64,000 bases of DNA from Candidatus Dojkabacteria bacterium (GCA_030583785.1 CP129475.1:159559-223558); one strand, 5' to 3'. Positions 17,516 to 36,640 are shown, numbered from the stretch's first letter. Made by a program: numbers and translations. The notes: generated by a model not told the origin, from the letters alone.

Positions 17516-17545
17516 CTTGCGAACACAGCCCTCTGATACAAAAAT

Positions 17546-18640: not shown

Positions 18641-18641
18641 A

Positions 18642-20377: not shown

Positions 20378-20480
20378 CGATTGAAGTTTGAATTATTCTA
20401 GAAACAATCATAGCACAGATACTAAACTTTGCCCCAAGCACCACTTAGTTGTAGAATTATAGGAATTAAGTAAAAAACCC

Positions 20481-21596
20481 ATGCTTATTAATAATACTGA
20501 TGTTTTTGGAATTGCCACCTTGGCAATTGTGAGCCTATTACTATCAGGAGTATTTGCCTTTCCAATAATCAACTTGCTGTATAAACTTAAAATTCTTAGA
20601 CATTTTGATGTTGATTTTTCTGCACTAATAGAAAGTAGAAAACAGAAAATCGGAACTCCAATAATGGGAGGACTTATCTTTATTTTGCCGGTGCTAATTA
20701 TCAATGCGATCTTAAACTGGAATAGCCTTACTGCTGTTCCTTTATTAATATTTGCATCAGCGGCCTTGCTCGGAGCACTCGACGATATTCTTAACATCTT
20801 CGGAAGAGCCAGAAAAATACGTAGTATTAAGAGAACGCTTAAACTGATTACCGTTCATAAAAGCATCTTGGTTCGACTTAAACTGCTGCTTGTATTTCCT
20901 TGGAATCTATACAGCCGAGCAGTTCATGTCTTCGAATCAAATCCGGGTAAGGGCTTATTTGGCCACGAAAAACTATTGATTCAGATCATTCTTGGAGCTT
21001 TGCTAGGCTATTGGATGTATAGTAATTTACCAATTGCAGGCAATTTATGGATTCCATTTGGTCTTACAATTGACCTCGGAATTCTTATTATTCCATTCGC
21101 AATTATTGCCATGATCGGCATGATTAATGCAGTTAATATTTCAGACGGACTCGATGGATTATCTGCAGGCATGCTCACTCCTGCTTTTGCCGGATTACTG
21201 GCAATTGCAGTTATTGAAGGCAACGAACCAATTGCAATACTGTGTGCAAGCATAGTGGGTGCTCTGATTACATATCTTTACTTTAACATTCCTCCCGCAA
21301 GAGTGCAGATGGGAGACACAGGATCTTTCGCTGCCGGAGCATTGCTTACTGCAATTGCCTTTGCCTTGGGTAAACCACTGCTGCTGTTAATTATTGGACT
21401 CCCATTTGTTGTTGAATTTATGAGTACATTTTTACAAAGCATCTTCCGTAGACTTCTCGGAAGAAGATTGTTACTTATGGCACCACTTCATCATCATCTT
21501 GAAATGCTTGGCTGGGGTGAAGAAAAGGTTGTAATGCGTTTTTGGCTGTTTGCTTTAGCCAGCGCAGTATTTGCAGTATGGATTTACTTTATCTAA
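20481..21596 (+). CDS. mraY: phospho-N-acetylmuramoyl-pentapeptide transferase
   Basis: 'NAVNISDGLDGLSAG' and 'MGDTGSFAAGALL' MraY/GT4 motifs; multi-TM; 371 aa. Confidence 0.8.
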   Translation: MLINNTDVFGIATLAIVSLLLSGVFAFPIINLLYKLKILRHFDVDFSALIESRKQKIGTPIMGGLIFILPVLIINAILNWNSLTAVPLLIFASAALLGALDDILNIFGRARKIRSIKRTLKLITVHKSILVRLKLLLVFPWNLYSRAVHVFESNPGKGLFGHEKLLIQIILGALLGYWMYSNLPIAGNLWIPFGLTIDLGILIIPFAIIAMIGMINAVNISDGLDGLSAGMLTPAFAGLLAIAVIEGNEPIAILCASIVGALITYLYFNIPPARVQMGDTGSFAAGALLTAIAFALGKPLLLLIIGLPFVVEFMSTFLQSIFRRLLGRRLLLMAPLHHHLEMLGWGEEKVVMRFWLFALASAVFAVWIYFI

Positions 21597-22547: not shown

Positions 22548-22620
22548 GCCGAGGTAGCTCAGTTGGTAGAGCACGCGCCTGAAGAGCGCGGTGTCGACGG
22601 TTCAAGCCCGTCCCTCGGCA
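22548..22620 (+). tRNA. tRNA-Phe (anticodon GAA)
   Basis: Acceptor GCCGAGG/CCTCGGC, anticodon stem CGCGC/GCGCG with loop CTGAAGA, T-arm GACGGTTCAAGCCCGTC; CCA not encoded. Confidence 0.85.
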
Positions 22621-22688
22621 CATTCTTGACTTCTGTTATTCACTATAATAATATCCCCAAAAGTAAACTTCAATTCGTATTAATTTGG

Positions 22689-23177
22689 ATGGAGTTAGAT
22701 CTTAATCATCTAAAGACACTCTCATTTACAGTTCTCAAAGGAATAGCATTATATGCTGCCGCGAACGCTTTAACAGCAGGCTTCACATTAGAGTGCAGAC
22801 ATACAATTCGCAAAAGAGCTGGAGGGGTTTCAGAATTGTCAGGTAATCCATATCTACCAATAGAGGCATCTCATATTAATCACTCTAGAAAGAATCATTT
22901 TTATGGTAAGCCTTATAATGGAATTGCACTTACACCTTTTGAACACCTTATCTACCACGAACAATTCATCGAAAATCCATTCGCAATTGGTTTAAATGAC
23001 GCACAGAACGATATGGCAATACGAAGGTTGCAACATACCTGTAGAGAATTAAATAAACAAAGAGGGATACCTAAAATGACTTATGAGCAAAGACAGGTTA
23101 TTGCAGATCAATTGATTGTGCTTGTGACAAATATCTGCTCAGATAACGGTATGGTCTGTCCATACGACCAACTGTAA
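22689..23177 (+). CDS. hypothetical protein (ORF trimmed to ATG downstream of tRNA-Phe)
   Basis: Track ORF 22563 overlaps the tRNA; first ATG clear of the tRNA is 22689 ('MELDLNHLKT...'); His-rich segment 'ASHINHSRKNH' of unclear significance. Confidence 0.3.
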   Translation: MELDLNHLKTLSFTVLKGIALYAAANALTAGFTLECRHTIRKRAGGVSELSGNPYLPIEASHINHSRKNHFYGKPYNGIALTPFEHLIYHEQFIENPFAIGLNDAQNDMAIRRLQHTCRELNKQRGIPKMTYEQRQVIADQLIVLVTNICSDNGMVCPYDQL

Positions 23178-23186: not shown

Positions 23187-23636
23187 TTACGATTTTTTTC
23201 TATTTAGGTGCCTGCTAATTAACAAGAGTACAATTATCGTAGCGAAGGCGACAAAAGACATTAAAGGAATTGTGATGAATCCTAGAAAGATGACTTGAGC
23301 TTCTCCACAAGGATTGTTTGGATCACAAGGGATAAGTGGATTATTAATTCCCTGCATATACTGCAGTTGATAGATATAGTGGTAGAGTGCAATTAATGCA
23401 CCAATTAATGAAAGCACAAATATGTAATACTTTGATGCTCTTGTATCTTTAATGAAATGGGCAACCAGCGTAATAATTGCAATCGGGTACATTAATGCCC
23501 TTTGATACCAGCATAGATCGCAAGGAGGAAGTTTTACAATTTCGCTGAAAACTAGACTACCTAGCGTTGCCACCCATGAAATAACTAGAACTATATATAA
23601 AACATTGTTTTTTAAGAAGATTGTTAGTTTAGTCAT
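23187..23636 (-). CDS. disulfide bond formation protein B family (DsbB/BdbC)
   Basis: 4 TM helices, first periplasmic loop 'LPPCDLCWYQRALMYP' (C-x2-C-x2-QR), second Cys pair 'PCDPNNPCGE'. Confidence 0.65.
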   Translation of the reverse strand: MTKLTIFLKNNVLYIVLVISWVATLGSLVFSEIVKLPPCDLCWYQRALMYPIAIITLVAHFIKDTRASKYYIFVLSLIGALIALYHYIYQLQYMQGINNPLIPCDPNNPCGEAQVIFLGFITIPLMSFVAFATIIVLLLISRHLNRKKS

Positions 23637-23712: not shown

Positions 23713-24462
23713 ATGAAGCATAAACTAATTCTACTTGGCTTGCCTCTTTTTGCAATAGTCCTTTTTTTCGTAGTATTGTTAATATTATTTCGTGATCATC
23801 CTGTCGAAAGTGTTCGTATTTCAGATCTCACAGATACCTCTGTAACAATTAGCTGGACAACAGTTAACGAACAGTTGGCTGCAGTCGAATATTACCAAGA
23901 AGGCAACAACGAAGTTATGACAGCTTTTGATACAAGAGATCTAGTTAAAAATAGCTCAGGACAATACGAATTGAGCGAACAAGGTAGGGCAACAAGAAAT
24001 ATTCATTATGTTGTAATTAGAAACCTTAATCCAGATACAACTTACACTTTTAGTATAAAAAATGCCGGTAATTTTAACGAGCAAACAATCAAGACCTATC
24101 CTACTTTGGCAAGCGTTAATTCACCAATGCCAATCTATGGCAAGGTAGTTAACTATATGGCAGATTCTCCAAATCCAAATGACGGTGTTATTTTTTACCG
24201 TATCCACGCCAAAGCAGATGATTCTCCTTTAACAAATTACTATTCTTCCTTAATATCAGCAGATTCTACCTGGAGCGGAGATCTAAGTAACCTTAGAGAC
24301 AATTCAGGGGCAGTTCTTAAAGTCAACGAAGAGACACATATTCTTGATGTAGAAGTCACCTCAGACACAGGGAAGGGTTGGCAACAACTGAATTTAATTG
24401 AAAGACTTCCAGCGGAAGATATTCTAGTTAATATTAGATACATCACAGATGAAACAAACTAG
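23713..24462 (+). CDS. membrane-anchored FN3-like domain protein
   Basis: N-terminal TM; 'VRISDLTDTSVTISWTT...YTFSIKN' fibronectin type III-like pattern. Confidence 0.4.
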   Translation: MKHKLILLGLPLFAIVLFFVVLLILFRDHPVESVRISDLTDTSVTISWTTVNEQLAAVEYYQEGNNEVMTAFDTRDLVKNSSGQYELSEQGRATRNIHYVVIRNLNPDTTYTFSIKNAGNFNEQTIKTYPTLASVNSPMPIYGKVVNYMADSPNPNDGVIFYRIHAKADDSPLTNYYSSLISADSTWSGDLSNLRDNSGAVLKVNEETHILDVEVTSDTGKGWQQLNLIERLPAEDILVNIRYITDETN

Positions 24463-26539
24463 CAAATACTTTGCTTTAATTCTGCTTACCGTAACTTTTT
24501 CCTTTATCGGTGCGGCAGTATATGCATCGAATGTCTTTGCCAAAACCGAGATTGACGCTAACGGAATACCCAGATGTTTAAGTCCTTACGAAGAAGCATG
24601 CGGTAGCAATTGCAAAAGGAATGTTACCTGCGGACCTAATGGTGAATTTCGTGTATCAGCCTGCAACTGTCAGGCACAAAACCAGCCTACCTGCCCAGTA
24701 GCTACTATCTGGGATGGCTCTGTATGCAAAGGTACTGCCAAGGGTACAAATGACGAGACAAAAGATACAACCCCATCATCTGGTGGTGGAGAAAAGGTTG
24801 CCAATAAAGAAAAGAAGCCAGCTGATCCAAAAACCAGACAAGAGGCTAATAAAGTAACAGTTGGAGGAAGCAGTGGCGGTGGAGGACAACAACCCGGCTC
24901 AGCAACCCCAACACCGACAGTGACAGTTAATCCAATCTGCTTAAGGACCAAAGATGAATGCTTGAGAGAAAACGGAGGTGCATGGTGTGGAATAATTGGT
25001 GATGTCACAATCAACCGTTGTTTCCCATTAGAATTAGCACAAACTGTTAATTGTACCCCCTCAAGTCAACCTTTAGAAACGGCTTCACGAATCTACGAAG
25101 CATGTGGTGTATCTAATGCTCCAATAGATACAAATATAAATGCAGCACTTTGTAGGAATGTAACAAATACATATTGTATGGGGACACTCGAAGGTGTAAA
25201 AAAACTATTAAGTGATGATCTTAAAAATAGAATCAATGCATCAGTAATTGTAAATAGTATTGGTGAAGGTGTCTGTATTATTTCTTTTGATAATTCCCCA
25301 TTCGGAAATCTTCCAATTGGGAAATGCACAGATAATGGAATATCGTTATCAGAGGATACATATGGTCAGCAGAGTAGCTTAGAGGAGGTTTGGAATAGTA
25401 TTAAAGATCTGATCATTCAAGCTGATGCGAATAATACTCGTAAACTGAATGTTCCTCTAGATGCGTCTGCTACAGAGGCTGAATCAGATGATACAACGAG
25501 TAATACATGCGATTTCGATTGCAATTCATGGTGTATCAATGAGCATATTACTTCAACTAAGTCTAACCCTGGCAACTCGCCTATAGTTTGTATCTATAAA
25601 AATAATAATACTCAAGAGGAATCTTCAATTTACATTACCTGTGACTCATCATTCCCAGGCGCTCACATTGTGAAAGATACGAATGGTCAGACGGTGACAA
25701 GTAGTGAACAATTTTGTCCTTATACTCCTGGGTCGGTTGGGTTACTAAATCAATTACAACTCGTCAAATCAGTCAAGGCACAATCAGTCCCAGAAGTTAT
25801 TGATCCAAACGACCTTGAAGCTGGAGTTTATATCATCGAGATCGAGGGCTATAAAACTGCTACAGTTCAAGTTTTTGCAGATAACATGACGCTTGAATTC
25901 TTCAATGATCTCAATGGAGACGGTATAAGGCAAGATAACGAGCCGTTACTTAAGCCAGAGCTTACAACTATCAAGATCGAAAAAGTCAGCTCGATTACAC
26001 TAATTGATTTTACAGAAGGCTGGAATTTAATCTCTCTAAATACTGTGTCCAATACTATGGCTAATGCTTCTGATCTGCACACAACAATCAATAATCAAGG
26101 CATTGTTGTTTATCAGATTAGCAAGTACGACAGCGGCAAATGGATTCACTATGTTTCTCGAATAAATGAGGCTGGCGAAAGAGTAGAATATGGTCAGGAC
26201 TTCCCGCTCATACCCGGAGAAGGGTATTTTGTACGAGCAATTAACGAAGGAACAGTCAGCCTAGAGGGTCAGAAAATTGATGATAATGTAGCATTTACGC
26301 TAGAAAATGGCTGGAACCTAGTTGGTATTCAATCTAAAGAAAAATACACAGCTTATGGAGTGCTAAACAGATGTTCTGCACAGTCAATTCAATGTTCCAC
26401 AATAAGTCGCTACAGAAATGGTGCTTACCAAAGCGTCGTATTCGAGAACAATATGACTTTTGGTCAAGACTATGATATTGAAAGCACGAGTGGCTACTTT
26501 ATCAAGAATCAAGGCGCAAAGGGAGAATTTAAGCCATAA
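24449..26539 (+). CDS. large secreted Cys-rich protein with Gly/Ser/Thr/Pro linker
   Basis: Signal/TM 'YFALILLTVTFSFIGAAVYA'; more than 30 Cys in 696 aa; low-complexity 'GGSSGGGGQQPGSATPTPTVTV'; no family recognised. Confidence 0.45.
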   Translation: MKQTSKYFALILLTVTFSFIGAAVYASNVFAKTEIDANGIPRCLSPYEEACGSNCKRNVTCGPNGEFRVSACNCQAQNQPTCPVATIWDGSVCKGTAKGTNDETKDTTPSSGGGEKVANKEKKPADPKTRQEANKVTVGGSSGGGGQQPGSATPTPTVTVNPICLRTKDECLRENGGAWCGIIGDVTINRCFPLELAQTVNCTPSSQPLETASRIYEACGVSNAPIDTNINAALCRNVTNTYCMGTLEGVKKLLSDDLKNRINASVIVNSIGEGVCIISFDNSPFGNLPIGKCTDNGISLSEDTYGQQSSLEEVWNSIKDLIIQADANNTRKLNVPLDASATEAESDDTTSNTCDFDCNSWCINEHITSTKSNPGNSPIVCIYKNNNTQEESSIYITCDSSFPGAHIVKDTNGQTVTSSEQFCPYTPGSVGLLNQLQLVKSVKAQSVPEVIDPNDLEAGVYIIEIEGYKTATVQVFADNMTLEFFNDLNGDGIRQDNEPLLKPELTTIKIEKVSSITLIDFTEGWNLISLNTVSNTMANASDLHTTINNQGIVVYQISKYDSGKWIHYVSRINEAGERVEYGQDFPLIPGEGYFVRAINEGTVSLEGQKIDDNVAFTLENGWNLVGIQSKEKYTAYGVLNRCSAQSIQCSTISRYRNGAYQSVVFENNMTFGQDYDIESTSGYFIKNQGAKGEFKP

Positions 26540-26589
26540 GTCTGCACAATTTTAAAGAAAACTGGTACAATTGAGCTCAACTCATATTG

Positions 26590-26666
26590 GGGCAGCTAGC
26601 TCAACTGGTTAGAGCAATTCGTTTACACCGAATAGGCTAGGGGTTCGAGTCCCTTGCTGCCCACCA
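26590..26666 (+). tRNA. tRNA-Val (anticodon TAC)
   Basis: Acceptor GGGCAGC/GCTGCCC, anticodon stem ATTCG/CGAAT with loop TTTACAC, TTCGAGT T-loop, encoded CCA. Confidence 0.85.
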
Positions 26667-26762
26667 ATTGTTTTCCAACCTCTGGTAATTATCTCAACCC
26701 AGCACAATATTCTGTTTTCTAAATTCTCCAATGATAAAATCATTAACATCATTTGAATCACA

Positions 26763-27155
26763 ATGGAGATTATTGGAAACCAAAACCGAATTATAAGTCA
26801 CGAAGTTTCAACCGATCCGGTCGAGAGATTAGCTATAGAAGTAGCTATAGAGCAGGGTCTAATAGTTTACGAAGCGCCAATGATCAAAATTGTTCGCGAA
26901 AAGTTGAGAAAGGGTGACAAAAGGTCAACAGTTCCAGATTTGCTCGTTCTGTGTTCTACCGATGATCCTGGAATATTTGTAGAAGTTACTATTCGTAATG
27001 CTAAAGCAGCAAGAAAAAACCGTCAAGAAGCTGTTATGAGAGAAGCTGGATTGATCAATAGATATGCACAAGTAGATGCTTCAGATATTACTCAAGCTAA
27101 AGAAGAGGGTTTTTACAATATGCTACTCCGCAAAATCCTAGAGCGAGATTCATAA
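26763..27155 (+). CDS. hypothetical protein (possible PD-(D/E)xK-like 'VPDLLVL...FVEVT' motif)
   Basis: 130 aa; first gene after tRNA-Val; motif resemblance only. Confidence 0.3.
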   Translation: MEIIGNQNRIISHEVSTDPVERLAIEVAIEQGLIVYEAPMIKIVREKLRKGDKRSTVPDLLVLCSTDDPGIFVEVTIRNAKAARKNRQEAVMREAGLINRYAQVDASDITQAKEEGFYNMLLRKILERDS

Positions 27156-27199
27156 AAACCAACTTACTATGCTATACTTATATATAGCATATATATACT

Positions 27200-27922
27200 A
27201 TGTTGAGAAAATATATACCTCCCGAAGGCGAATCTAGGTCTAGATGGTGGCCATCAAATGTGCCAATTATCGAGAGAAATGAACTTTATACATATACTGG
27301 CATATCTCCTACAGACGAGTATACCTTAAATAAGCATGACTATTACAATCTAAATTTCACTCAACCATATCCTTATGATATAGATAGCCCTTACTGTAGT
27401 GGCGCTGAAGGAATTATTGGCTGGAGAGGCATTCTCGAGCCTAATCCGACTCGATCAAACCTGTCCATCAGTCGGTCTGAAGCTGGAATATTAATATTTG
27501 AATCACATAGACAGCCGTTCCCAAGTATTTTTCCAGAAGCAGACAATAGAAGACCGATAATTCATAAAAGGAGCTTCCATAACAAACACGGCGCACTAGT
27601 AACAAGTAACCCTACAGGGCTTGTTCATATTCCACACGGGCATATACTTCCAAGTGGATTATATATAACTTCACCGAAGTTTCAATTATTAGTTCGAGAC
27701 GAATTCGGATTACTTACACCAATCTATAACATAGGTCTGCCAGAAGACGAAAAACGACAGTCTTATGTGCTTCTTATTAGAAAAGCTCAAAATCTTTCAC
27801 CAGAAATTGTGCCTGCTATTGAAAAACTTCTAGAAGTTCCCAAGCTCGAATTCAAAGATGTACTTCTTGGATATGCTAAACGCCTAATGCTAACTTATGA
27901 GTTCTGGCGAAAAACATCATAG
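27200..27922 (+). CDS. uncharacterised protein, paralog A of an undescribed family
   Basis: Shares 'PYC..AE.G..GW', 'I..IFE', '(K/H)(H/K)R...G...T.NPTG', 'LY..Y(I/L)TSP' blocks with the ORF at 28657-29352. Confidence 0.4.
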   Translation: MLRKYIPPEGESRSRWWPSNVPIIERNELYTYTGISPTDEYTLNKHDYYNLNFTQPYPYDIDSPYCSGAEGIIGWRGILEPNPTRSNLSISRSEAGILIFESHRQPFPSIFPEADNRRPIIHKRSFHNKHGALVTSNPTGLVHIPHGHILPSGLYITSPKFQLLVRDEFGLLTPIYNIGLPEDEKRQSYVLLIRKAQNLSPEIVPAIEKLLEVPKLEFKDVLLGYAKRLMLTYEFWRKTS

Positions 27923-27964
27923 CTATTGCACTTTAGCAAGTCGGTATAGAAATAAGTATAGGTA

Positions 27965-28291
27965 CTATGGTTCTTGCTTATCAACAAAAATTCTTACTTC
28001 TGGATAATTTCTCACAGGTATTGAAATGCGATCAGCAGTGAACTCTATCCCTACAGGGCATTTTATTTCTTTAGAGCCGGGTCTTTTATCTTCTGGAGCA
28101 TCATCATGCAGACCGAGATCCAGGATCACTCCAGCAACAGATAGAAATCCATCTTCTAAGCAGAATGCACAAGAGCCAGCTAACTGGAATGTGCATTCTT
28201 CTGGACAATAATCACGCTTTGTACCTTCATTTAGTTTAACGGTCTTATCATCAATCTCAACAACAGGCACAACAGAGTATACAGTCTCCAT
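27965..28291 (-). CDS. small Cys-rich hypothetical protein (C-x3-C-x7-C-x2-C)
   Basis: 'CPEECTFQLAGSCAFC' cluster; 108 aa. Confidence 0.3.
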   Translation of the reverse strand: METVYSVVPVVEIDDKTVKLNEGTKRDYCPEECTFQLAGSCAFCLEDGFLSVAGVILDLGLHDDAPEDKRPGSKEIKCPVGIEFTADRISIPVRNYPEVRIFVDKQEP

Positions 28292-28656
28292 TTTTAAATT
28301 AATTAAGACTATGAGAGTATAGCATACTCATTCCCTAAGCCTTGCAATGAATTTTACAAATTGTTGCTCAAATCCGGGGATTTCATTTGTTTTAAGCGCT
28401 ATTTCGATTGCTGTAAACATTGACTCAACCATGGTTTGATCATACATCAAACCAAACCACATCCTAGCATAATCATCGTATTCGCAACTGGCCCTTAGCC
28501 TGCTAACACCATCAATATACTGAATAGTAATCTTAGCCATGACTTTAACCTTTCTGGTTAAAATATAAAATACATCTTTGTGGCTAAGATGGAATAAACT
28601 AGTATATCACGGAGATAAGGATTTTTTGATAGGACAGCAATATATTATAATTACAT

Positions 28657-29352
28657 ATGGAAACCGAACCAAGACCAATTCGAATTGAAGATGTCAGAAT
28701 TTTTGAATTCGCTGATATCTACCCTTTTACTGGCTACTATACTGAAGCTGGCCTTAATAGGGATGTCATCAGAACAATTCTTGAAAACAATTTTGGCTAT
28801 TATTCAAGAACTGCTTACCCTACCTTTATAGCACCACCATACTGCAGAGATGCAGAGGTTGGCTATGGAGGATGGAACCGAATTGCCGAGCAAAATTCTT
28901 GGCAACAAGCGACTAGGCAGATACGCTTAGGTATATGGATATTTGAGCCAGAATCACAACAATATCAGCAAATTGCAGATAATCATCCTGTTATCATTAA
29001 ACATCGATGGGGAAAAGATGGGTCAATAACTACTAACCCGACTGGGATAACATACCTTAACCAAGTTGGTTTGTATCCAGATTATTATTTGACAAGTCCT
29101 CCAATTATGGGACAAACACACAGAGAACTTATCGTTGATCGTTTTCCTCAAGAAAGAGAACAAGAAGAATATCAACCCATTTCGGTCTTACTGGCAAGAC
29201 CTGCTGTTTCACTAAAACCCAATACGAGAGAAAGACTTGCACAAAGACTCGGTATTGAAGCTCTTGAACAGCCCCAATCTGAAATAAACCCACTAGAAAA
29301 AGCATTAAGAATCCTTCTTGAAGAGGCTATGAAGAAACTAAGCTCTCGATAA
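28657..29352 (+). CDS. uncharacterised protein, paralog B of the same undescribed family
   Basis: Conserved blocks shared with 27200-27922 (see above); 231 aa. Confidence 0.4.
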   Translation: METEPRPIRIEDVRIFEFADIYPFTGYYTEAGLNRDVIRTILENNFGYYSRTAYPTFIAPPYCRDAEVGYGGWNRIAEQNSWQQATRQIRLGIWIFEPESQQYQQIADNHPVIIKHRWGKDGSITTNPTGITYLNQVGLYPDYYLTSPPIMGQTHRELIVDRFPQEREQEEYQPISVLLARPAVSLKPNTRERLAQRLGIEALEQPQSEINPLEKALRILLEEAMKKLSSR

Positions 29353-29400
29353 AACATTCATTATTTTCTTCTAAAAACTGTTACTATAGTTTTAATTATA

Positions 29401-30225
29401 ATGATTTTATTAAAATCTAGACTCATGCAAGTCAATAAAAAGGTAATTATCATTTTTTCTCTGATCGTTTTAGTTTTTTGTTGCCTTTCAGTATTATGCG
29501 TTTTACTTTTGAGCAACTTCTATACAAGTTACTCGGACCGTATCCCAACTGACAATTCAATAAATCCAACCGTCACATCTGTTCCAATAACCGCTTCACC
29601 TAGACCAACAAACACAGGAACAACTAACGATCTGGGCAACGGTAGTGATACTGGCAATACAGATTCTGAAACTGACGATAATTGTGTGACCATACCTGGA
29701 ACAGAAACAATCGTTGATCAAGCTTCTGGTCTTTTTACAACCATAATTCCTGCTTCTAACACAACCAACTTTAAGAAGGCAGCTGATATGATAAAAGGTA
29801 TGCAGATGGAAATAAGTGAAAGCGGATTACCAGGTAACTTGAAGAACAGCTGCTCTGGAGCGAATTACGAATATATTGCAGAGTTAAGTATTACTAAACC
29901 ACAAACCCTTGATTACGCCAGAACTTTAATATATATCACAAGCCAAGACTTATTATCTTCAAAGCTAAACGAAGTGAGTATAGCTGTTATCGTTTTTGGT
30001 TTAGACAGTAATGACATTGTTGTGAATAGCTCTACATTAAGAGCAAGCGAGTTAGTTAGAGACTCACAGGTAAGTCAATGTTTATACTCCATAGAGAATT
30101 CAACAATAAAAAGTCTTGATTCGGATTGTCTGGTAGGAATTATAAAAAATAACGAACTCTCAATAACAAGAGCAAGACAGGAAGCAATACGAATTATCTC
30201 TATTTACGAACAAAGTTCTAGATAA
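29401..30225 (+). CDS. membrane-anchored/secreted hypothetical protein
   Basis: N-terminal TM 'VIIIFSLIVLVFCCLSVLCVLLL', Thr/Asn-rich linker, 274 aa. Confidence 0.35.
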   Translation: MILLKSRLMQVNKKVIIIFSLIVLVFCCLSVLCVLLLSNFYTSYSDRIPTDNSINPTVTSVPITASPRPTNTGTTNDLGNGSDTGNTDSETDDNCVTIPGTETIVDQASGLFTTIIPASNTTNFKKAADMIKGMQMEISESGLPGNLKNSCSGANYEYIAELSITKPQTLDYARTLIYITSQDLLSSKLNEVSIAVIVFGLDSNDIVVNSSTLRASELVRDSQVSQCLYSIENSTIKSLDSDCLVGIIKNNELSITRARQEAIRIISIYEQSSR

Positions 30226-30227
30226 AA

Positions 30228-31022
30228 ATGTTAAATCGACTATTTAATTCTGGAGGGACTGATGATCCCGTTCCCGAAGAAGAGACTTCGTTAAAATCTG
30301 AATTAGACGAGTGCTTAGATTATCCAGAAGATAGAAGAGTTGCATTGCAGGATCGTAGAAACGAAGAATTTCTACAATCAAATGTAGAATACTCGCGTCA
30401 AACTACACCCACATGCTTAATAAAAAGTGTAAGAAATGCATTACATGCACTGGGTTTAGAGGATAGATTCCCAAGTTTTGTTCTCCGGCTCGATGCAATT
30501 GCAGACTTCTCTGACGATGATAGCCCTGGAGATAAATATGAGGATATAATGAAAATAGTCCTTTCAGTGAGAGATGGTGATCAAGAGATGGATATCGAAC
30601 CGGAATTAGTAAATATCGAGGTCAAACCATCGGTAAAGCAAAGAAATCGTGAACTTCGACAAAGTCGTGATGTATTGATAGCGAAAACTGCTGCCGAGAT
30701 ACAAAGTAATATAAACGAGACTAAAAGACTTGTTACAGCAATAAACTACACTAATGGTATATATAAACTAAATAAGCCGCATGACGCGTCTGCTCCAAAA
30801 GAGTATCAAGACGATTTGCACGCAATCCTTATTGATTCATATAGGGTTGATGATAATGGATTTATGGATGTTAGAGTGATTGATCCCAACTTTCCTGATA
30901 ATACAATTGCCAGATGGATTCCACTTGAGCATTTTGTAGATATATTAAGTGACACACAAGGTCACCTAGTAATAAGTAACGAAGAAGACTACCTGGATGT
31001 AGTTTGGTCGGACCTAAAATAG
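30228..31022 (+). CDS. acidic cytoplasmic hypothetical protein
   Basis: 264 aa; start-stop overlap with the preceding gene (TAAAAATG). Confidence 0.35.
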   Translation: MLNRLFNSGGTDDPVPEEETSLKSELDECLDYPEDRRVALQDRRNEEFLQSNVEYSRQTTPTCLIKSVRNALHALGLEDRFPSFVLRLDAIADFSDDDSPGDKYEDIMKIVLSVRDGDQEMDIEPELVNIEVKPSVKQRNRELRQSRDVLIAKTAAEIQSNINETKRLVTAINYTNGIYKLNKPHDASAPKEYQDDLHAILIDSYRVDDNGFMDVRVIDPNFPDNTIARWIPLEHFVDILSDTQGHLVISNEEDYLDVVWSDLK

Positions 31023-31039
31023 AACGAAAGGAACATATA

Positions 31040-31771
31040 TCAGCGCTCGAGACCTTCTAAATATTCGATTAGACGAGCGTTAGCTATTGATCCCTTTAGT
31101 TCGATGCAATCCGAGAAGAAGGCTTCAACTTCGTAAGGTGAGAAGACAGGAATATGAGCACGCACCCATTCTTTACTAAAGGGCTGAATCAAAACAACCA
31201 TGGCCTTAACATTGATTTTTCGAACAATATGTTGATCAGTTTTCAAATTTGATCGCAAATGATTTCTTAGTCTAATTGAATTAAACATTGCCTGGTCAAC
31301 TGGGCTGGCAATTCTGTGCTTCTTTGGCAAGTATTGATTACCTATCTTTTCTCTGTATAAATAATACCAGCCCTGAAAATCTGTTCCTATCCTTGATGAG
31401 TAGTTCTTTGTTTCAATCACATATAATCCTTTACTGGAAAGAACGACATGATCAATATTTCCACCTTCACCCGGTAGAATAAGATTGTGAAAACTTCTAA
31501 TTACTGGTATTGATTTAAGCTTGATCCAGACCTTTTCTTCTCCCTCCTGACCTTTCTCGTAATTTCTAATCCCGTAATTTGTAATCTGAAAATCTTTTGA
31601 AGTATCTGTTTTGACAAGATATTTACTTCTATCAAAGCGGAAGGATTTATTCTCTGCTTTCTCCTCTGGTTTTTCAAAAGATTCCCAAATGATAGACAAA
31701 ACCATCATCATCAAGAATGAAAAGCCTCCTGCAAAAATAACCGCGATCGCTAAAAGGACTAGTAAACTCAT
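31040..31771 (-). CDS. NERD (nuclease-related domain)-like membrane-anchored protein
   Basis: N-terminal TM, then 'GGNIDHVVLSSKGLYVIETKNYS' resembling the NERD core (D...(D/E)xK-like 'IETK'). Confidence 0.4.
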   Translation of the reverse strand: MSLLVLLAIAVIFAGGFSFLMMMVLSIIWESFEKPEEKAENKSFRFDRSKYLVKTDTSKDFQITNYGIRNYEKGQEGEEKVWIKLKSIPVIRSFHNLILPGEGGNIDHVVLSSKGLYVIETKNYSSRIGTDFQGWYYLYREKIGNQYLPKKHRIASPVDQAMFNSIRLRNHLRSNLKTDQHIVRKINVKAMVVLIQPFSKEWVRAHIPVFSPYEVEAFFSDCIELKGSIANARLIEYLEGLER

Positions 31772-31909
31772 CTAAAAACTAATGAGTACAGATAATAAAA
31801 ACCAGTATAAAAAAGTTTCTACAAGATTACTATGGTGATTAACACCTACATTAGAATATTGGTATAAATTATATTTGTAGTTATAATACCCTTTGATCTA
31901 AACAACTTT

Positions 31910-32773
31910 ATGGATCCTTTATCTTTATCAATAATCTCTTCAATAGCCATCGGCATTGGCCATTCCTACATGAAGATAGTCATTCCCAAAATCGGAAGTG
32001 AGAGATTTATTTTCATGCGTGGAGCAATGCTGTCGATCTTGCTGTTATTGTTGCTTTTTGTTGGTTTTGGAAATCCAATCATAGATATCAACGGGGTACT
32101 AATTGCAATCGTTGTTTCGATCATCGGAGCTATGGGTTTATTGTTTTTTACACGCGGTGTGGAGCAGGGGACTCCAAGTGTTGTTTCTGCCGTATCTAGT
32201 TCAAGAATCCCCTTAACAGCTTTAATTGCCGCAACCCTCTTGAACGAATCCATTAGTCAAATAGCCTCTTTGGGTATACTTGTGGTTGTATTTGGGCTCA
32301 TTCTAATTAGTGATGTGTTGAAAAAACAGAGAATCAGCCAAACTAAGCTGTCTAGTGCTTTTATTTATGGTTTTATTGCAGCCGTATTCTGGGGCGTCTC
32401 TTCTGCATTCATCGGTATTCCTTCGGCTTTACTTGGAGCGTTATTATTTACATTTATTCTTGAGTTAATTGTAGCTCTGGTTGGTTTTGTACTTATGCTA
32501 TCTAAGGAGCACAGGATACTTCCCAAGGATAAGTTCTTTAAAGATTACTGGGGTTGGCTAGTCTTAATGACGATCCTTGGCCTTGTTGGGAGCTTAAGTA
32601 TGAATATTGCTTACGAAACTGGCAGAGTTAGTGTTGTTGCATCTGTTGTAGCCGCAAATCCATTAATAACAATAATATCTGACAGAATAATTCTTGGCAC
32701 GAAACTAAGACTTATTCAGTATGTTGCAATAGTAACAATAATTGTCGGAATTACAATGATAATATTTGGCTAG
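31910..32773 (+). CDS. EamA/DMT-family transporter
   Basis: About 10 predicted TM helices in two 5-TM halves; 287 aa. Confidence 0.55.
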   Translation: MDPLSLSIISSIAIGIGHSYMKIVIPKIGSERFIFMRGAMLSILLLLLLFVGFGNPIIDINGVLIAIVVSIIGAMGLLFFTRGVEQGTPSVVSAVSSSRIPLTALIAATLLNESISQIASLGILVVVFGLILISDVLKKQRISQTKLSSAFIYGFIAAVFWGVSSAFIGIPSALLGALLFTFILELIVALVGFVLMLSKEHRILPKDKFFKDYWGWLVLMTILGLVGSLSMNIAYETGRVSVVASVVAANPLITIISDRIILGTKLRLIQYVAIVTIIVGITMIIFG

Positions 32774-32781: not shown

Positions 32782-34632
32782 CTAGGCAAGCTTTAGTCCC
32801 TTAACACGCAAGGCATTAACAATTACTATTACATCGATTACTTCTTGAGCTAAGGCACCAACTACAGGAATAAACATTCCAAATGCTCCGGCAAACATTA
32901 GTATAAAGCTGAGACCCATTCCAACAAAGATACTTTGCTTGGCTATGAATAAAACTCTTCGGCTTACAATGACTGCATCTGCAACTCTGCTGATGTTCTC
33001 GCTAGTAATGACGATTGAACCGGCTTCTGTAGAAGCTGATGTTCCAAGCACTCCTATAGCAATTCCAGCGTCTGCAGCTGCCAACGCTGGGGCATCGTTA
33101 ACGCCGTCACCAACCATAATAACTGGAGAGAAGCCCTGTTCTTTGAGTCTTTTTACCATGTTAAGTTTATCTTCTGGTAAGCACTTTGATTGATATTCTT
33201 TTATATCGTATGCTTTTGCTATTCTTGCGGCTGTAGTTTCGTTGTCTCCGGTAAGCATAACTTGTTTAGTAATTCCAAGTTTAGACAACTTTTTTAAAGT
33301 AGCTGCGACATCTGGTCTAGCCTGATCAGAAAATTTAATGTAACCAAGTACTTCTGACTGAGACATAATTAGCATTAACATTAAGCCTTCGGACTTATTT
33401 TGTTCGTAGATAGCCCTTGCTTGACTATGAATAGAATCATATTCTTTTACCAGTGCGGGCTTACCAAAAAACAACTGTGTTTCGTTTATTATTGCCCTGA
33501 GTCCGAGACCGAAATCTTCTGACACATTTGTAGCATTTAAAGCAGCAATATTTGCCTTTTCGGCATGTTCTTTTATTGCTTTAGCAATAATGTGGATTGA
33601 ATGTAGTTCGGCAGAGTATGTAAGTTGTATTAGTTCTTGTTCGCTATATTTACCAAGCGATATAACCGATTCAACTGCAAGTTTACCAAATGTTAATGTA
33701 CCTGTTTTGTCGAAAATTATGGCCTTTGCTTTACCAAGTGATTCAATACTTTGACCCGACTTAAAAATTATACCGCGCCCTGCACCAATACTTATTCCAG
33801 AAGCAAAAGCTATTGGAGCTGCAAGTATTAGTGGGCAAGGTGTAGCAACCACTAAAACTAATAATGCCCGCAGGGGGTCTCCACTAATCATCCAAGCAAG
33901 ACCTGCAATTAGAAATGCAGAAATCGTAAAGAAGATACTGTACTTATCTGCCATTCTTACAAATGGAGCTTTGTTTTTTTCTGCCTCTTTAACGAGTGCA
34001 ATTATTTGCTGATATTTACTATTTTCTGAACTACTGGTAACAGTCATTTGTACGGAATTATCCATGACGACAGTACCGCTATAGATCTGATCGCCTGCGA
34101 CCTTTGTAACTGGCAAGGATTCGCCCGTAATGTTTGCTTCTGTTAGTGATGCCTCTGAGCTTGTAAGCACACCATCAACTGGGACGACTTCTCCGGGTTT
34201 TATAAGCAATAGATCGTTAACTTGAACCTCTTTTACATTAATATCTTGTAGTTTGTCTTTTGAATACCTGTGAGCAACCTGTGGTTCGAGAGATAAGAGT
34301 TTTTTTAACTCGTTCCCAGACCTTTTATAGGCATATTCTTCGAGTAGTTCGCCACCAGATAGCATTAGAAGTATTATTGCCCCAGCAAGATACTCGCCAA
34401 GCAAAAGACTGGCTAAGATTCCTGTTATTGCTATGTAGTCAACGCCAAACTTTCTTTTTAGGAATGAGCCAACGATATCAAAGACTAGAGGTATTGTACC
34501 AACGATTACAACCGATCCTAGCACAATGTCTGCAACATTATTTTGGTTGCTTGACCATAATAGAGCATAAACAACGATTGCAAGTATAATTATGATCGGG
34601 ACAACTAATTTTAGCTGTGCTAGCTTATTCAT
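32782..34632 (-). CDS. heavy-metal translocating P1B-type ATPase lacking N-terminal metal-binding domain
   Basis: 'ATPCPL' CPC transport motif, 'DKTGTLT', 'GDGVNDAPALAAADAGIA'; 616 aa beginning directly with TM helices. Confidence 0.8.
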   Translation of the reverse strand: MNKLAQLKLVVPIIIILAIVVYALLWSSNQNNVADIVLGSVVIVGTIPLVFDIVGSFLKRKFGVDYIAITGILASLLLGEYLAGAIILLMLSGGELLEEYAYKRSGNELKKLLSLEPQVAHRYSKDKLQDINVKEVQVNDLLLIKPGEVVPVDGVLTSSEASLTEANITGESLPVTKVAGDQIYSGTVVMDNSVQMTVTSSSENSKYQQIIALVKEAEKNKAPFVRMADKYSIFFTISAFLIAGLAWMISGDPLRALLVLVVATPCPLILAAPIAFASGISIGAGRGIIFKSGQSIESLGKAKAIIFDKTGTLTFGKLAVESVISLGKYSEQELIQLTYSAELHSIHIIAKAIKEHAEKANIAALNATNVSEDFGLGLRAIINETQLFFGKPALVKEYDSIHSQARAIYEQNKSEGLMLMLIMSQSEVLGYIKFSDQARPDVAATLKKLSKLGITKQVMLTGDNETTAARIAKAYDIKEYQSKCLPEDKLNMVKRLKEQGFSPVIMVGDGVNDAPALAAADAGIAIGVLGTSASTEAGSIVITSENISRVADAVIVSRRVLFIAKQSIFVGMGLSFILMFAGAFGMFIPVVGALAQEVIDVIVIVNALRVKGLKLA

Positions 34633-34648: not shown

Positions 34649-35278
34649 TTATAAACTTTTGTAGCTACTAAGAATGGCATCTAGAATAGCAGGATCGTTC
34701 TTTTGCATTTTAATGGCTACAAAGCCATCTTCACCACGAGCGAACGAACTTGCCTTGAACAGGGTTATTTCATATGACTGGTTTTTGTCTAGCTCTATAA
34801 CATTATAAGTAACAAAGCGACCTGTATTGGATTTTTCGGATGCGTTATAGAATGAATACTTTATACTGTCTATGCGTTCTTCAGACCAGGCTGTTGCCCA
34901 ATCAATAACAGCAGATTCATAAATATCTTTACCGGGCCTTATCGTTACAGATGAAAAGTCAATCTCGATAAGATTGTCATTAATTTCTAGTTCAATATCG
35001 AATACACCTCCGCCCTCGTTAAACCTGACATTTTCTACTTTCGGGTAACTAATAGAAAAGGGGGTGAAAACAGGGTTCTCAGTTACTGCAGAAGGTTCAC
35101 CATATATATATGTTGCAAATTCAATGTCTTCTGTAACAGGTTGCGAATTGTCGTTTGTTTGTTCTTGAGTATTGTTATCATTATTGGAGTTATTATCCTT
35201 AGTGGTTCTATCGATATAGACATATATGGCTAAAACGATAATGGCAACTACAACGATTACTGATAGTAATGTTTTCAT
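34649..35278 (-). CDS. membrane-anchored hypothetical protein
   Basis: N-terminal TM 'LLSVIVVVAIIVLAIYVYI', Asn/Asp-rich linker. Confidence 0.35.
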   Translation of the reverse strand: MKTLLSVIVVVAIIVLAIYVYIDRTTKDNNSNNDNNTQEQTNDNSQPVTEDIEFATYIYGEPSAVTENPVFTPFSISYPKVENVRFNEGGGVFDIELEINDNLIEIDFSSVTIRPGKDIYESAVIDWATAWSEERIDSIKYSFYNASEKSNTGRFVTYNVIELDKNQSYEITLFKASSFARGEDGFVAIKMQKNDPAILDAILSSYKSL

Positions 35279-36006
35279 TTGGATATTTTTGCTGAATTAG
35301 AAATATTTATCTTTCCACCTGATTCTAGCGTAATCTGCTTAGAAGTAAAATCTATGCGAAGACTTGATTGCGGGAGCAGATTAAGTCTACCATTTTTTGT
35401 AATTCGAACATTGTTTTTAGCTATGTGTGCACCACTTAGATTACATTCGTTATTAATAATCCAATCACCATTTGACGGAGGTTTGCAAGCATTAGTTTCA
35501 AAACTTATAAAAGAGTAGTTACTGTTTGCTGTAGCTGTTCGAGTGTTATAGCTTCTGTCTCCTCCGTTCCAATTATATTCCGATAATTTGAACTTGTTAT
35601 TATCTAAGACTTCTTCGACGAATCCGACATGTCCAACTTTACCTGCACCATTGGCAAAAGGTGGAATTGAAAATACGGTGTGTTTCTTTGGACTAGTGCT
35701 GACTTCAAATCCTATGAATTTTGCATTCTCGTCCCAGTTGCCGCCATTACCGAATAGTCCCTTTTTGCCATTAGGGCCAACCATAGCATTATGGAAATTA
35801 CCGATTTGTTGATCTGCTTTAAAAGCAGCGTAAGAGGTGCATTGCCTTTTATACATAGCCCATTCGTCAACTTCGCACTTTTCTCCGTAGCCACATTTAG
35901 CAGCATTTGCATATGGATACCCTCCATTTTCAAGAGAATGAACTGTTACAATTTGGGACAAACTGATAAGCATTAATAGAATTAATATCTGAGAAATTCT
36001 TTTCAT
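35275..36006 (-). CDS. secreted CHAP-domain amidase/peptidase
   Basis: Signal peptide; 'YKRQCTSYAAFK' catalytic Cys context and 'GKVGHVGFVEEV' His block typical of CHAP domains. Confidence 0.55.
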   Translation of the reverse strand: MKRISQILILLMLISLSQIVTVHSLENGGYPYANAAKCGYGEKCEVDEWAMYKRQCTSYAAFKADQQIGNFHNAMVGPNGKKGLFGNGGNWDENAKFIGFEVSTSPKKHTVFSIPPFANGAGKVGHVGFVEEVLDNNKFKLSEYNWNGGDRSYNTRTATANSNYSFISFETNACKPPSNGDWIINNECNLSGAHIAKNNVRITKNGRLNLLPQSSLRIDFTSKQITLESGGKINISNSAKISK

Positions 36007-36031: not shown

Positions 36032-36640
36032 CTAATCTATAATATGAGCCTGACTGTATGAACCATTAGACAGATAAGAAAATACAACACGATCTGGTTG
36101 CACAAATAGACTAGAGAAGATAGGTAAATAAAAATTATCTTTATATGAATCTAGATTTGTGGATTTAGCCGTATTAAAACTGTACTTTTTTAAATCTGCT
36201 CGATAATCAGCGCAGCTATCGAAAGTTTTACAGTTTGAGGTAACATAATAGAACCAGTTATCACCCCGCCAGGCTAATTTGTCTGTAAGTATTACATCTG
36301 AGAATTCGACTTTGCCAGTGACAAGATTAATGAGATACAGCCTGTTGCCTCCATAATAATGACTATAGGTAAAAAATATTGCATGAGTATTACCTGGATT
36401 AAGTCCGGAAAAGTATTCTTCTGCATGGAAATTTAATCGGTGTTGTAGTTGACAGTTACCGAACTTGACAGATAGTATTGCCTGTCCATATTCATAATTA
36501 ACTAATGGAGCAGAGAAGTCGCACAAGCCTGAAGTTTCTGTTGATTGGTCTACTTCTTGAGCTGAAACGGAAGTTACACCAGGATGCAGACCTAATACTA
36601 GAACTAGCATAAGCATTGCTATTTGAAATAGATTCTTCAT
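36032..36640 (-). CDS. secreted hypothetical protein
   Basis: Signal peptide 'MKNLFQIAMLMLVLVLGLHPGVTSVSA'; 202 aa. Confidence 0.35.
   Translation of the reverse strand: MKNLFQIAMLMLVLVLGLHPGVTSVSAQEVDQSTETSGLCDFSAPLVNYEYGQAILSVKFGNCQLQHRLNFHAEEYFSGLNPGNTHAIFFTYSHYYGGNRLYLINLVTGKVEFSDVILTDKLAWRGDNWFYYVTSNCKTFDSCADYRADLKKYSFNTAKSTNLDSYKDNFYLPIFSSLFVQPDRVVFSYLSNGSYSQAHIID

What the first reader, a model, noticed from the sequence alone, without database searches (positions are those of the whole stretch)
26667..31771. tRNA-Val-flanked island of uncharacterised genes with two divergent paralogs of an undescribed family, small Cys-cluster proteins and a NERD-like protein
Seen: eight genes with no housekeeping identity sit immediately 3' of tRNA-Val. 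The ORFs 27200-27922 and 28657-29352 share conserved blocks ('PYC..AE.G..GW', '(K/H)(H/K)R...G...T.NPTG', 'LY..Y(I/L)TSP') but are otherwise divergent. They are separated by two small antisense genes, one with a C-x3-C-x7-C-x2-C cluster. The island also contains a TM-anchored Thr/Asn-rich protein, an acidic protein and a NERD-like (nuclease-related) membrane protein. Inference: tRNA adjacency, duplicated and diversified paralogs, and a nuclease-like terminal gene fit an accessory/defence or toxin-immunity island. No integrase or direct-repeat att site was found, so its mobility is unproven.
Basis: partly seen in the sequence, partly recalled or inferred. Interest (0 to 1): 0.55.

Follow-up and report, generated by a model that had tools for sequence, protein, structure and literature searches.

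The report
Orphan gene block in a Dojkabacteria genome
Next to a tRNA-Val gene in a tiny-genome CPR bacterium (Candidatus Dojkabacteria) sits a run of real genes found only in this species, including two distant paralogs of a family seen nowhere else; one paralog is present in some strains and missing in others, but nothing shows the block is a mobile or defence island.

Summary
tRNA-Val (26590-26666) is followed by eight ORFs. The two ORFs at 27200-27922 and 28657-29352 are true paralogs (30% identity, E=8e-13). The last gene is a membrane-anchored NERD protein (PF08378, E=1.5e-16). The window is from a 1.17-Mb Candidatus Dojkabacteria (WS6, CPR) chromosome. An exhaustive HMMER search of 1.84 billion cluster representatives found the paralog family only in this species group, and no Pfam, NCBIfam, PADLOC, PHROG or PDB sequence match exists. 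The four genes with enough substitutions to test are under purifying selection (pN/pS 0.23-0.43; shifted frames above 1 for three), weaker than in housekeeping neighbours (0.07-0.13). The 'island' reading is mostly unsupported: no integrase, no att repeat, no GC shift, no viral, phage or plasmid relatives. The block is present in every sister-strain contig recovered. New finding: paralog B lies in an 833-nt segment (28592-29424) that seven sister contigs replace with an identical 136-nt spacer, so it varies between strains. A ~200-bp patch in the neighbouring small Cys gene is only 50-77% identical to another strain. Function is unknown: both structure models failed. Best reading: a species-restricted orphan block with a recombination-shaped variable spot. 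Moderate-to-low interest.

The parts
26590..26666 (+). tRNA-Val (anticodon TAC), left landmark of the block
   Evidence: ARAGORN and Rfam RF00005 at 68.8 bits. Its 3' end is not repeated anywhere in the window.
26763..27155 (+). ORF1, 130 aa, orphan. It has a PD...E-V-T motif (P58-D59, E74) loosely reminiscent of a PD-(D/E)xK nuclease core; this is unverified.
   Evidence: ORF; no family; weak PHROG Holliday-junction-resolvase hit at E=0.07; no PDB match; present in all sister contigs; too few substitutions for pN/pS.
27200..27922 (+). Paralog A, 240 aa, orphan family; soluble, with a single Cys (the invariant PYC Cys)
   Evidence: pN/pS is 0.31 against 1.15-1.35 in shifted frames. Alleles at 95-98% identity occur in sister strains.
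27965..28291 (-). 108-aa acidic small protein with a Cys cluster (C29, C33, C41, C44, plus C78)
   Evidence: The N-terminal half is hypervariable against strain L001 (73% aa identity overall, pN/pS 1.09) while the C-terminal half is nearly identical. The fourth Cys is not conserved.
28110..28320 (.). Hypervariable allelic patch (N-terminal ~58 codons of the Cys gene plus its upstream spacer)
   Evidence: 50-77% nt identity to L001 against 97-100% in the flanks. Substitutions are of all types and the window holds no template repeat, so it is not DGR-like.
28328..28540 (-). 70-aa orphan protein, upstream in the same transcriptional direction as the Cys gene
   Evidence: conserved in sister strains, pN/pS 0.23 on few substitutions; no family.
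28592..29424 (.). Strain-variable segment (833 nt) that carries paralog B; replaced by an identical 136-nt spacer in seven sister contigs
   Evidence: The paralog-B-positive haplotype occurs in the same slot in six short contigs. Contigs identical to the window break at 28493 and 29425. The H3C67 MAG has a 100-N scaffold gap here.
28657..29352 (+). Paralog B, 231 aa, 30% identical to paralog A; single Cys (the invariant PYC Cys); GC and GC3 like the genome
   Evidence: Its 90%-identity cluster has one member only.
29425..30225 (+). N-terminally membrane-anchored protein, 266 aa (274 aa from ATG 29401), with a Thr/Asn/Pro-rich linker and a Cys-containing C-terminal domain; probably surface-exposed
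   Evidence: The start at 29425 is supported by sister contigs and gene calls. pN/pS 0.29-0.43. No family.
30228..31022 (+). Acidic 264-aa orphan protein (pI 4.49). Motifs Q..PTC (C63), LHAIL (H198) and VIDP (D219) give a papain/C39-like impression that is untested.
   Evidence: pN/pS 0.29-0.33. No Pfam, NCBIfam or PDB match. The AF2 model is unusable, pLDDT 40.7.
31040..31771 (-). Membrane-anchored NERD-domain protein, 243 aa, with an intact D107...E120-x-K122 signature
   Evidence: PF08378 E=1.5e-16, 61.3 bits. Weak matches to the N-terminal regions of MAD6, MkoA and PglW. TM segment 1-30 and motif positions. Conserved in all sister contigs.

Best explanation
This is a chromosomal block of lineage-restricted ('orphan') protein-coding genes in a Candidatus Dojkabacteria (CPR) species. 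It is not a demonstrable integrated mobile element. Shown: the four genes with enough substitutions to test (paralog A, the 70-aa gene, the TM gene and the acidic gene) are real and under moderately relaxed purifying selection. The two paralogs form a family restricted to this species group. The block's order is fixed among sister strains, with two local exceptions: an 833-nt segment carrying paralog B that other strains replace with a 136-nt spacer, and a ~200-bp divergent allele patch in the adjacent small Cys gene. Inferred: these sharp islands of roughly 30% divergence or indel inside 97-100% identical flanks arise by homologous recombination among co-existing strains, that is, allele exchange plus gene loss or gain, rather than by site-specific integration. 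Such local diversification next to a membrane-anchored NERD nuclease and a surface-anchored protein suggests products exposed to conflict with phage or with the host cell of this presumed episymbiont. Paralogs A and B are predicted to be soluble cytoplasmic proteins, possibly enzymes that use their single invariant Cys. The tRNA-Val adjacency is most likely incidental.
For: Organism and locus tags. Orphan status: the word-index search, exhaustive HMMER over 1.84e9 representatives, genome, viral and metagenome DNA scans, and the family libraries and PDB all find nothing outside the species. Real genes: pN/pS 0.23-0.43 for paralog A, the 70-aa, TM and acidic genes; shifted-frame controls above 1 for paralog A and TM and in one of two shifted frames for the acidic gene (none computable for the 70-aa gene); EamA and ATPase at 0.07-0.13. 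Not a classical island: flat GC and genome-like GC3, no att repeat, no integrase or transposase between 16 and 46 kb, no phage or plasmid hits. Same gene order in all sister contigs. Paralog B indel and junctions. Weak residual homology of the TM-upstream spacer between haplotypes. Allelic patch in the Cys gene. Mosaic divergence, with some genes showing 0 differences and neighbours pS of 5-7%. Intact NERD motif and single invariant Cys in each paralog.
Against: Function is not established for any gene except by the NERD domain name. Both structure models failed (pLDDT 28.5 and 40.7). A remote-homology search of the big database was completed only for the paralogs; the fused-query search for the other five proteins did not even recover the queries themselves, so it is uninformative. 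Sister contigs were retrieved by exact protein matches, which biases them towards near-identical strains. All are one species, so 'fixed order' says little about deeper conservation. The direction of the paralog B polymorphism (loss or gain) is unresolved. The conflict-related role is inference from the pattern of variation and from one domain.
Confidence: 0.6

Rival explanations
1. A decayed tRNA-Val-integrated genomic (defence) island. The block arrived by site-specific integration next to tRNA-Val, and the integrase and att repeat have since eroded. The NERD nuclease and the orphan genes are its cargo.
For: tRNA adjacency. In the relative L029, tRNA-Phe and tRNA-Val lie 160 nt apart beside GT4/UvrC, whereas here they are 4 kb apart and are followed by orphan genes; synteny with OLB20 and L029 ends right after GT4. 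NERD proteins are often found in defence islands (preprint 10.64898/2026.04.06.716636).
Against: No integrase, no att repeat, no GC or GC3 deviation, and no viral, phage or plasmid relatives. The whole block is present in every sister strain. The flanking genes (696-aa, 209-aa and 202-aa proteins) are orphans too, so the 'island' has no defined right or left edge.
Confidence: 0.13
2. A toxin-immunity or polymorphic-toxin-type cassette. Paralogs A and B are diversified immunity (or toxin) proteins, the 70-aa and 108-aa pair is a TA-like module, and strain-level presence/absence of paralog B reflects an immunity-gene repertoire.
For: Two diverged paralogs in tandem-like arrangement. Paralog B varies between strains. 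A small two-gene operon of 70 and 108 aa has a hypervariable half in the second gene.
Against: No known toxin, immunity, secretion-marker or TA family matches in Pfam, NCBIfam or PADLOC. There are only two family members in the whole genome and species, unlike typical immunity arrays. No large toxin gene with a variable C-terminus lies adjacent.
Confidence: 0.1
3. Species-specific but functionally core genes, for example envelope or host-attachment functions, with nothing accessory about them. This would fit the surrounding DsbB, fn3, Cys-rich secreted 696-aa protein, CHAP hydrolase and EamA transporter genes.
For: The block is present in the same order in all sister contigs, and the testable genes are under purifying selection. 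The neighbourhood is rich in envelope and secreted proteins.
Against: Paralog B is dispensable in many strains. Constraint is 3-5 times weaker than on the housekeeping neighbours. Paralogs A and B, ORF1 and the acidic protein have no signal peptide or TM segment.
Confidence: 0.15
4. The ORFs are spurious (non-coding sequence with chance ORFs).
For: No database family for seven of the eight ORFs.
Against: pN/pS is well below 1 in the annotated frames and around or above 1 in shifted frames for paralog A and the TM gene, and in one of two shifted frames for the acidic gene. The paralogs keep conserved motif blocks at 30% identity. ORF lengths are maintained across strains.
Confidence: 0.02

Closest known systems
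NERD (nuclease-related domain, PF08378) proteins, including the N-terminal NERD-like regions of PglW/MkoA/MAD6 defence kinases and the NERD RNA endonuclease ZwsA
   Same: The gene at 31040-31771 matches PF08378 well above threshold. It has the D...E-x-K signature with the same D-to-E spacing (13) as the residues mutated in ZwsA.
   Different: It is a minimal architecture of one TM helix plus one NERD domain (243 aa). It has no kinase, VHS or S4 domain and no partner genes of BREX, MADS or Mokosh. Matches to those systems cover only ~90 residues at E of 6e-5 to 0.13. Activity and substrate are unknown.
tRNA-associated genomic islands (integrase-mediated)
   Same: The block lies directly 3' of a tRNA gene and consists of lineage-specific genes.
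   Different: It has no integrase, no duplicated tRNA 3' end, no compositional signature, and no presence/absence of the block as a unit among strains.
Strain-variable 'flexible' regions and ORFan clusters of CPR/Patescibacteria genomes
   Same: Small-genome CPR organism, a high proportion of hypothetical proteins, surface-protein genes nearby, and local strain-level indels and allelic mosaics.
   Different: Here the variable unit is a single ~700-bp gene that is a 30%-identical paralog of a neighbouring fixed gene. The family is undetectable outside the species even with exhaustive HMMER.
Diversity-generating retroelement targets (considered for the hypervariable patch)
   Same: A sharply bounded hypervariable stretch inside an otherwise conserved small gene in a CPR genome.
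   Different: The substitutions are not adenine-specific, no template repeat exists in the 64-kb window, no reverse transcriptase was seen among the ORFs scanned, and the variation extends into the non-coding spacer and lies at the N-terminus.

Membership tests
NERD domain family (PF08378) | Match to the family HMM above the curated gathering score | tested here: met
   61.3 bits against a cutoff of 22.1, E=1.5e-16, profile positions 1-110 of 111.
NERD domain family (PF08378) | PD-(D/E)xK-type catalytic signature D...E-x-K | tested here: met
   IDHVV (D107) and IETK (E120, K122) read from the sequence. The same D-x13-E-x-K spacing applies to ZwsA residues D567/E580/K582 cited.
NERD domain family (PF08378) | Nuclease activity | not testable with these tools
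   Needs a biochemical assay.
tRNA-integrated genomic island | Adjacent to the 3' end of a tRNA gene | tested here: met
   tRNA-Val at 26590-26666; the first ORF starts at 26763.
tRNA-integrated genomic island | Integrase or recombinase gene within or at the edge | tested here: not met
   No such Pfam family in the 28 ORFs scanned between 16 and 46 kb.
tRNA-integrated genomic island | Direct repeat of the tRNA 3' end (attL/attR) | tested here: not met
   The 25-mer with up to 3 mismatches and the 15-mer with up to 2 mismatches match only the tRNA itself in 64 kb. No flanking direct repeat.
tRNA-integrated genomic island | Compositional deviation from the host genome | tested here: not met
   GC 0.35-0.39 inside against 0.38 for the window. 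GC3 of the island genes lies within the range of housekeeping genes.
tRNA-integrated genomic island | Presence/absence of the whole block among close relatives (empty site) | tested here: not met
   All sister-strain contigs spanning the region carry the block in the same order; only paralog B varies. Deeper relatives were uninformative because synteny is lost about 5 kb before the block.
Known anti-phage defence systems (PADLOC-DB v2) | HMM matches to the system's component proteins in one locus | tested here: not met
   Seven of the eight proteins have no hit. The NERD protein gives only partial hits to MkoA (E=6.5e-4) and PglW (E=9e-3), covering their NERD-like N-termini.
Type II toxin-antitoxin pair (70-aa + 108-aa genes) | Match of either partner to a known toxin or antitoxin family | tested here: not met
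   No Pfam, NCBIfam, PADLOC or PHROG family at E<=1, other than one PHROG hit of unknown function at E=0.28.
Diversity-generating retroelement target (hypervariable patch 28110-28320) | Template repeat nearby and adenine-specific substitutions | tested here: not met
   No second copy in the window, and substitutions are of all 12 types.
Papain-like / C39-like cysteine peptidase (acidic protein) | Family HMM match or papain-like fold with a Cys-His-Asp triad | tested here: inconclusive
   No Pfam, NCBIfam or PDB sequence match. The AF2 model has pLDDT 40.7 and is unusable. Only motif spacing (C63, H198, D219) suggests this; the lead comes from memory.
PD-(D/E)xK nuclease (ORF1) | Family HMM match or conserved D...(D/E)-x-K core | tested here: inconclusive
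   PD at 58-59 and E-V-T at 74-76, with Lys replaced by Thr. PHROG resolvase hit only at E=0.07. No PDB hit.

The most novel reading that the evidence does not exclude
Paralogs A and B define a genuinely new protein family, possibly a Cys-dependent enzyme with no detectable relatives anywhere, that acts in a CPR-specific conflict or host-interaction module together with the adjacent small proteins, the surface-anchored protein and the membrane NERD nuclease. The strain-level gain or loss of paralog B and the allele swapping in the Cys protein would then be signatures of an ongoing arms race in an episymbiotic bacterium.
Probability: 0.15. Interest if true: 0.6.

Novelty: new member of a known kind. 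Interest (0 to 1): 0.3.

Why it matters
CPR/Patescibacteria genomes are small, and little is known about how they resist phages or interact with their host cells. A species-restricted gene family with a segregating presence/absence paralog, next to a NERD nuclease and a surface protein, is a concrete and cheaply testable candidate for such functions. As it stands, though, it is mainly one more cluster of orphan genes, which are abundant in these organisms. Its practical value is as a corrected annotation: it is not a mobile island, paralog B is strain-variable, and the TM gene start is revised. It is also a pointer for structure-based follow-up.

Tried and rejected
1. Structure route. AF2 on the paralog alignment gave pLDDT 28.5 and on the single acidic-protein sequence pLDDT 40.7. 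Both are unusable, so no fold search was run; it would have been meaningless.

2. Fused-query search. I fused ORF1, the Cys protein, the 70-aa protein, the TM C-terminal domain and the acidic protein into one query. It returned nothing, not even the query proteins, which are in the database. The positive control failed, so the result is uninformative. These five proteins therefore have no completed large-database homology search.

3. ATPase as a synteny anchor. The nearest non-self ortholog is 51% identical and shares no synteny.

4. UvrC as a synteny anchor. Relatives are syntenic up to GT4 (window 21596) and not beyond, so the empty-site test could not be done.

5. DGR explanation for the hypervariable patch: rejected.

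6. Prophage or plasmid origin: rejected.

7. hhalign of the paralog profile against the window's CHAP protein and the acidic protein showed no relationship. The PDB profile search gave only noise at E=0.72.

8. Promoter and terminator consensus scans were at or below chance. No Rfam element other than the tRNA was found.

9. Further paralogs in the window: none.

10. Literature searches on Dojkabacteria and OLB21 gave no relevant description.

Full report
**What is there.** The window has about 38% GC and comes from a Candidatus Dojkabacteria (WS6, CPR/Patescibacteria) chromosome of 1,172,464 bp. The island proteins are identical to NCBI WKZ28149-WKZ28156, locus tags QY330_00895-00930. tRNA-Val(TAC) lies at 26590-26666.
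- ORF1: 26763-27155 (+), 130 aa
- paralog A: 27200-27922 (+), 240 aa
- a 108-aa Cys-cluster protein: 27965-28291 (-)
- a 70-aa protein: 28328-28540 (-)
- paralog B: 28657-29352 (+), 231 aa
- a TM-anchored Thr/Asn-rich protein: 29401/29425-30225 (+)
- an acidic 264-aa protein: 30228-31022 (+), pI 4.49
- a 243-aa protein: 31040-31771 (-), with one N-terminal TM segment and a NERD domain (PF08378, 61.3 bits, E=1.5e-16)

The NERD domain keeps a D107...E120-x-K122 signature. This is the same D-x13-E-x-K spacing as the residues mutated in the NERD RNA endonuclease ZwsA (preprint 10.64898/2026.04.06.716636).

**The paralogs.** Each protein has exactly one cysteine, the invariant one in the PYC motif, and neither has a hydrophobic segment. 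No Pfam, NCBIfam, PADLOC or PHROG family matches, and the PDB profile search gives noise only. The word-index search of 5.8 billion clusters returned only three entries: paralog A's cluster, paralog B itself, and a partial paralog A ortholog from WS6 bacterium OLB21. The exhaustive HMMER search of 1.84 billion 50%-identity representatives returned the same three. DNA-level scans of species-representative genomes, viral contigs and JGI metagenomes found nothing. The window has no third copy. This is therefore a true orphan family with two members, confined to one species group.

**Are the genes real?** I compared the window with sister-strain contigs at 93-98% nucleotide identity.

| Gene | pN/pS |
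|---|---|
| paralog A | 0.31 |
| TM gene | 0.29-0.43 |
| acidic gene | 0.29-0.33 |
| 70-aa gene | 0.23 |
| EamA (neighbour) | 0.11-0.13 |
| P-type ATPase (neighbour) | 0-0.07 |

Shifted-frame controls are above 1 for paralog A and the TM gene. For the acidic gene they are 1.43-1.51 in one shifted frame and 0.79-0.84 in the other. None could be computed for the 70-aa gene. These four are therefore protein-coding genes under purifying but relaxed selection. ORF1, the Cys gene and the NERD gene had too few substitutions for this test.

**Is it an island?** The evidence is against a classical mobile island:
- GC is flat across the region, and the island genes' GC3 is like that of housekeeping genes.
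- The tRNA-Val 3' end is not repeated anywhere in the 64 kb, even allowing mismatches, and there are no flanking direct repeats.
- None of the 28 ORFs scanned between 16 and 46 kb is an integrase, transposase or phage protein.
- No island protein has relatives in IMG/VR, INPHARED phages or PLSDB plasmids.
- Every sister-strain contig that spans the region carries the order NERD, acidic, TM, 70-aa, Cys, paralog A, ORF1, tRNA-Val, 696-aa.

These sisters are all one species, so this does not show that the block is core at deeper levels. The nearest other lineages are too far away to settle it. The flanking ATPase has no ortholog above 51% identity and shares no synteny. With UvrC as the anchor, WS6 OLB20 (61% identical) and a Dojkabacteria MAG (48%) are syntenic with window 10009-21596, up to the GT4 gene, and not beyond. 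One hint favours rearrangement around the tRNAs: in that MAG, tRNA-Phe and tRNA-Val are 160 nt apart next to GT4/UvrC, whereas here they are 4 kb apart. The genes flanking the 'island' (the 696-aa secreted Cys-rich protein and the 209-, 202- and 161-aa proteins) also lack families. About 35% of the 20 flanking proteins scanned are orphans, so the block has no natural edges and is only moderately unusual for this genome.

**New observation 1: paralog B varies between strains.** Sister contigs align to the window at 97-98% identity over 26000-28610 and 29425-32500. Between the conserved GGCTAAGATG (ending at 28591) and the TM gene's ATG at 29425, the window has 833 nt containing paralog B. Seven contigs from seven different sequencing runs have an identical 136-nt spacer there instead. 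The haplotype carrying paralog B occurs in six further short contigs, always in the same slot. Contigs 100% identical to the window break at 28493 and 29425, and the H3C67 MAG has a 100-N scaffold gap at this spot. These are the usual signs of strain heterogeneity in assemblies. No other paralog-B-like protein exists in the database, so the gene has not moved elsewhere in the strains that lack it. The ~70 nt upstream of the TM gene are weakly homologous between the two haplotypes: local score 19 against 13.3 +/- 2.3 for shuffles, with 13 of 500 shuffles reaching it. That stretch is only about 70% identical, and paralog B's composition is native. At 30% identity to paralog A, the duplication is ancient. 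The polymorphism is therefore best read as loss of paralog B, or as exchange of a long-diverged allele by homologous recombination, rather than a recent insertion. I could not resolve the direction.

**New observation 2: an allelic patch in the Cys gene.** Against contig L001, window 28110-28320 is only 50-77% identical, inside flanks that are 97-100% identical. This stretch covers the N-terminal ~58 codons of the Cys protein and its upstream spacer. The gene's pN/pS is 1.09. The fourth Cys of the cluster is Ser in that allele, which argues against an obligatory four-Cys metal site. The substitutions are of all types, there is no template repeat, and the variation runs into non-coding DNA, so this is not a DGR target. 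Divergence along the whole region is mosaic: fn3, the Cys gene and CHAP show zero differences from L016 while their neighbours show pS of 3-7%. That is consistent with frequent recombination among strains.

**Function.** Only the NERD protein has a family assignment. ORF1 has a PD...E-V-T motif and a PHROG resolvase hit at E=0.07. The acidic protein has a Cys/His/Asp motif spacing that recalls papain/C39-like peptidases. Both are leads only. Sequence searches against families and the PDB are negative, and the AF2 models have pLDDT 28.5 and 40.7. My fused-query attempt to search the other five proteins in the large database failed its own positive control and must be disregarded.

**Verdict.** The interpretation as a tRNA-flanked accessory, defence or toxin-immunity island is only partly supported. 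The genes are lineage-specific and one spot varies between strains, but there is no evidence of mobility or of any known defence or toxin architecture beyond a stand-alone NERD protein. Most likely (about 0.6) this is a species-restricted orphan gene block whose local variability is generated by recombination among co-existing strains, possibly under conflict-type selection. The rivals are a decayed tRNA island (0.13), a toxin-immunity module (0.10), a lineage-specific but functionally core envelope cluster (0.15), and spurious ORFs (0.02). Interest is modest at 0.3. Orphan clusters are common in CPR genomes, but the exhaustively confirmed orphan family with a segregating paralog is a well-defined target for structure prediction and simple expression tests.

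Noticed in passing
window 28110-28320: A sharply bounded hypervariable patch covers the N-terminal half of the 108-aa Cys protein and its upstream spacer. It is 50-77% identical to contig L001, while the flanks are 97-100% identical. pN/pS is about 1.1, and the fourth Cys is replaced by Ser. It is not DGR-like.
   Followed up: yes
window 24449-26539 (696-aa protein), with 23187-23636 (DsbB) and 23713-24462 (fn3 / purple acid phosphatase N-terminal domain protein): Immediately upstream of tRNA-Val lies a secreted orphan protein with a signal-like N-terminus and 26 Cys. It is itself strain-variable (pN/pS 0.48, 26 unaligned codons, 690 aa in L016). It sits next to a DsbB and an fn3 protein, which looks like an envelope or surface-protein neighbourhood.
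   Followed up: partly
L029 7510-7819 versus window 22548-22621 and 26590-26666: In a related Dojkabacteria MAG, tRNA-Phe and tRNA-Val are 160 nt apart beside GT4/UvrC and in inverted orientation. In the window they are 4 kb apart with DsbB, fn3 and the 696-aa gene between them. This suggests rearrangement or insertion around these tRNAs.
   Followed up: partly
window 32782-34632 (P-type ATPase): The best non-self ortholog among 5.8 billion clusters is only 51% identical and shares no synteny, whereas the neighbouring Fic/HTH gene is 81% identical to OLB20. The species is phylogenetically isolated, or this ATPase has an unusual history.
   Followed up: partly
window 17546-18640: A Fic/DOC-domain protein with a C-terminal DeoR-type HTH lies next to UvrC. 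It is highly conserved with WS6 OLB20 (81% aa) and a Dojkabacteria MAG (64%).
   Followed up: no
window 22563-23177: The mechanical 204-aa TTG ORF overlaps tRNA-Phe (22548-22621). Gene calls on sister contigs give a 162-aa product, so the real start is further downstream.
   Followed up: no
window 29401 versus 29425: The TM protein's longest ORF starts at 29401, but homology with sister strains begins exactly at the ATG at 29425, and gene calls give 266 aa. The upstream 24 nt belong to the variable segment.
   Followed up: yes
L015 (GCA_019454465.1, JACFOF010000003.1) around locus 9601-9700: The H3C67 MAG has a 100-N scaffold gap exactly at the paralog B slot, so public annotation of that genome cannot show whether paralog B is present.
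   Followed up: yes
tool behaviour: A fused multi-protein query to homologous-protein hit the 8000-candidate limit and failed to recover even identical database entries. Negative results from such saturated searches should not be trusted.
   Followed up: yes
window 35275-36006 and flanking 34649-35278, 36032-36640: A CHAP-domain (cell-wall amidase/peptidase) protein is flanked by two more orphan proteins just beyond the ATPase. It is identical between the window and sister strains.
   Followed up: no
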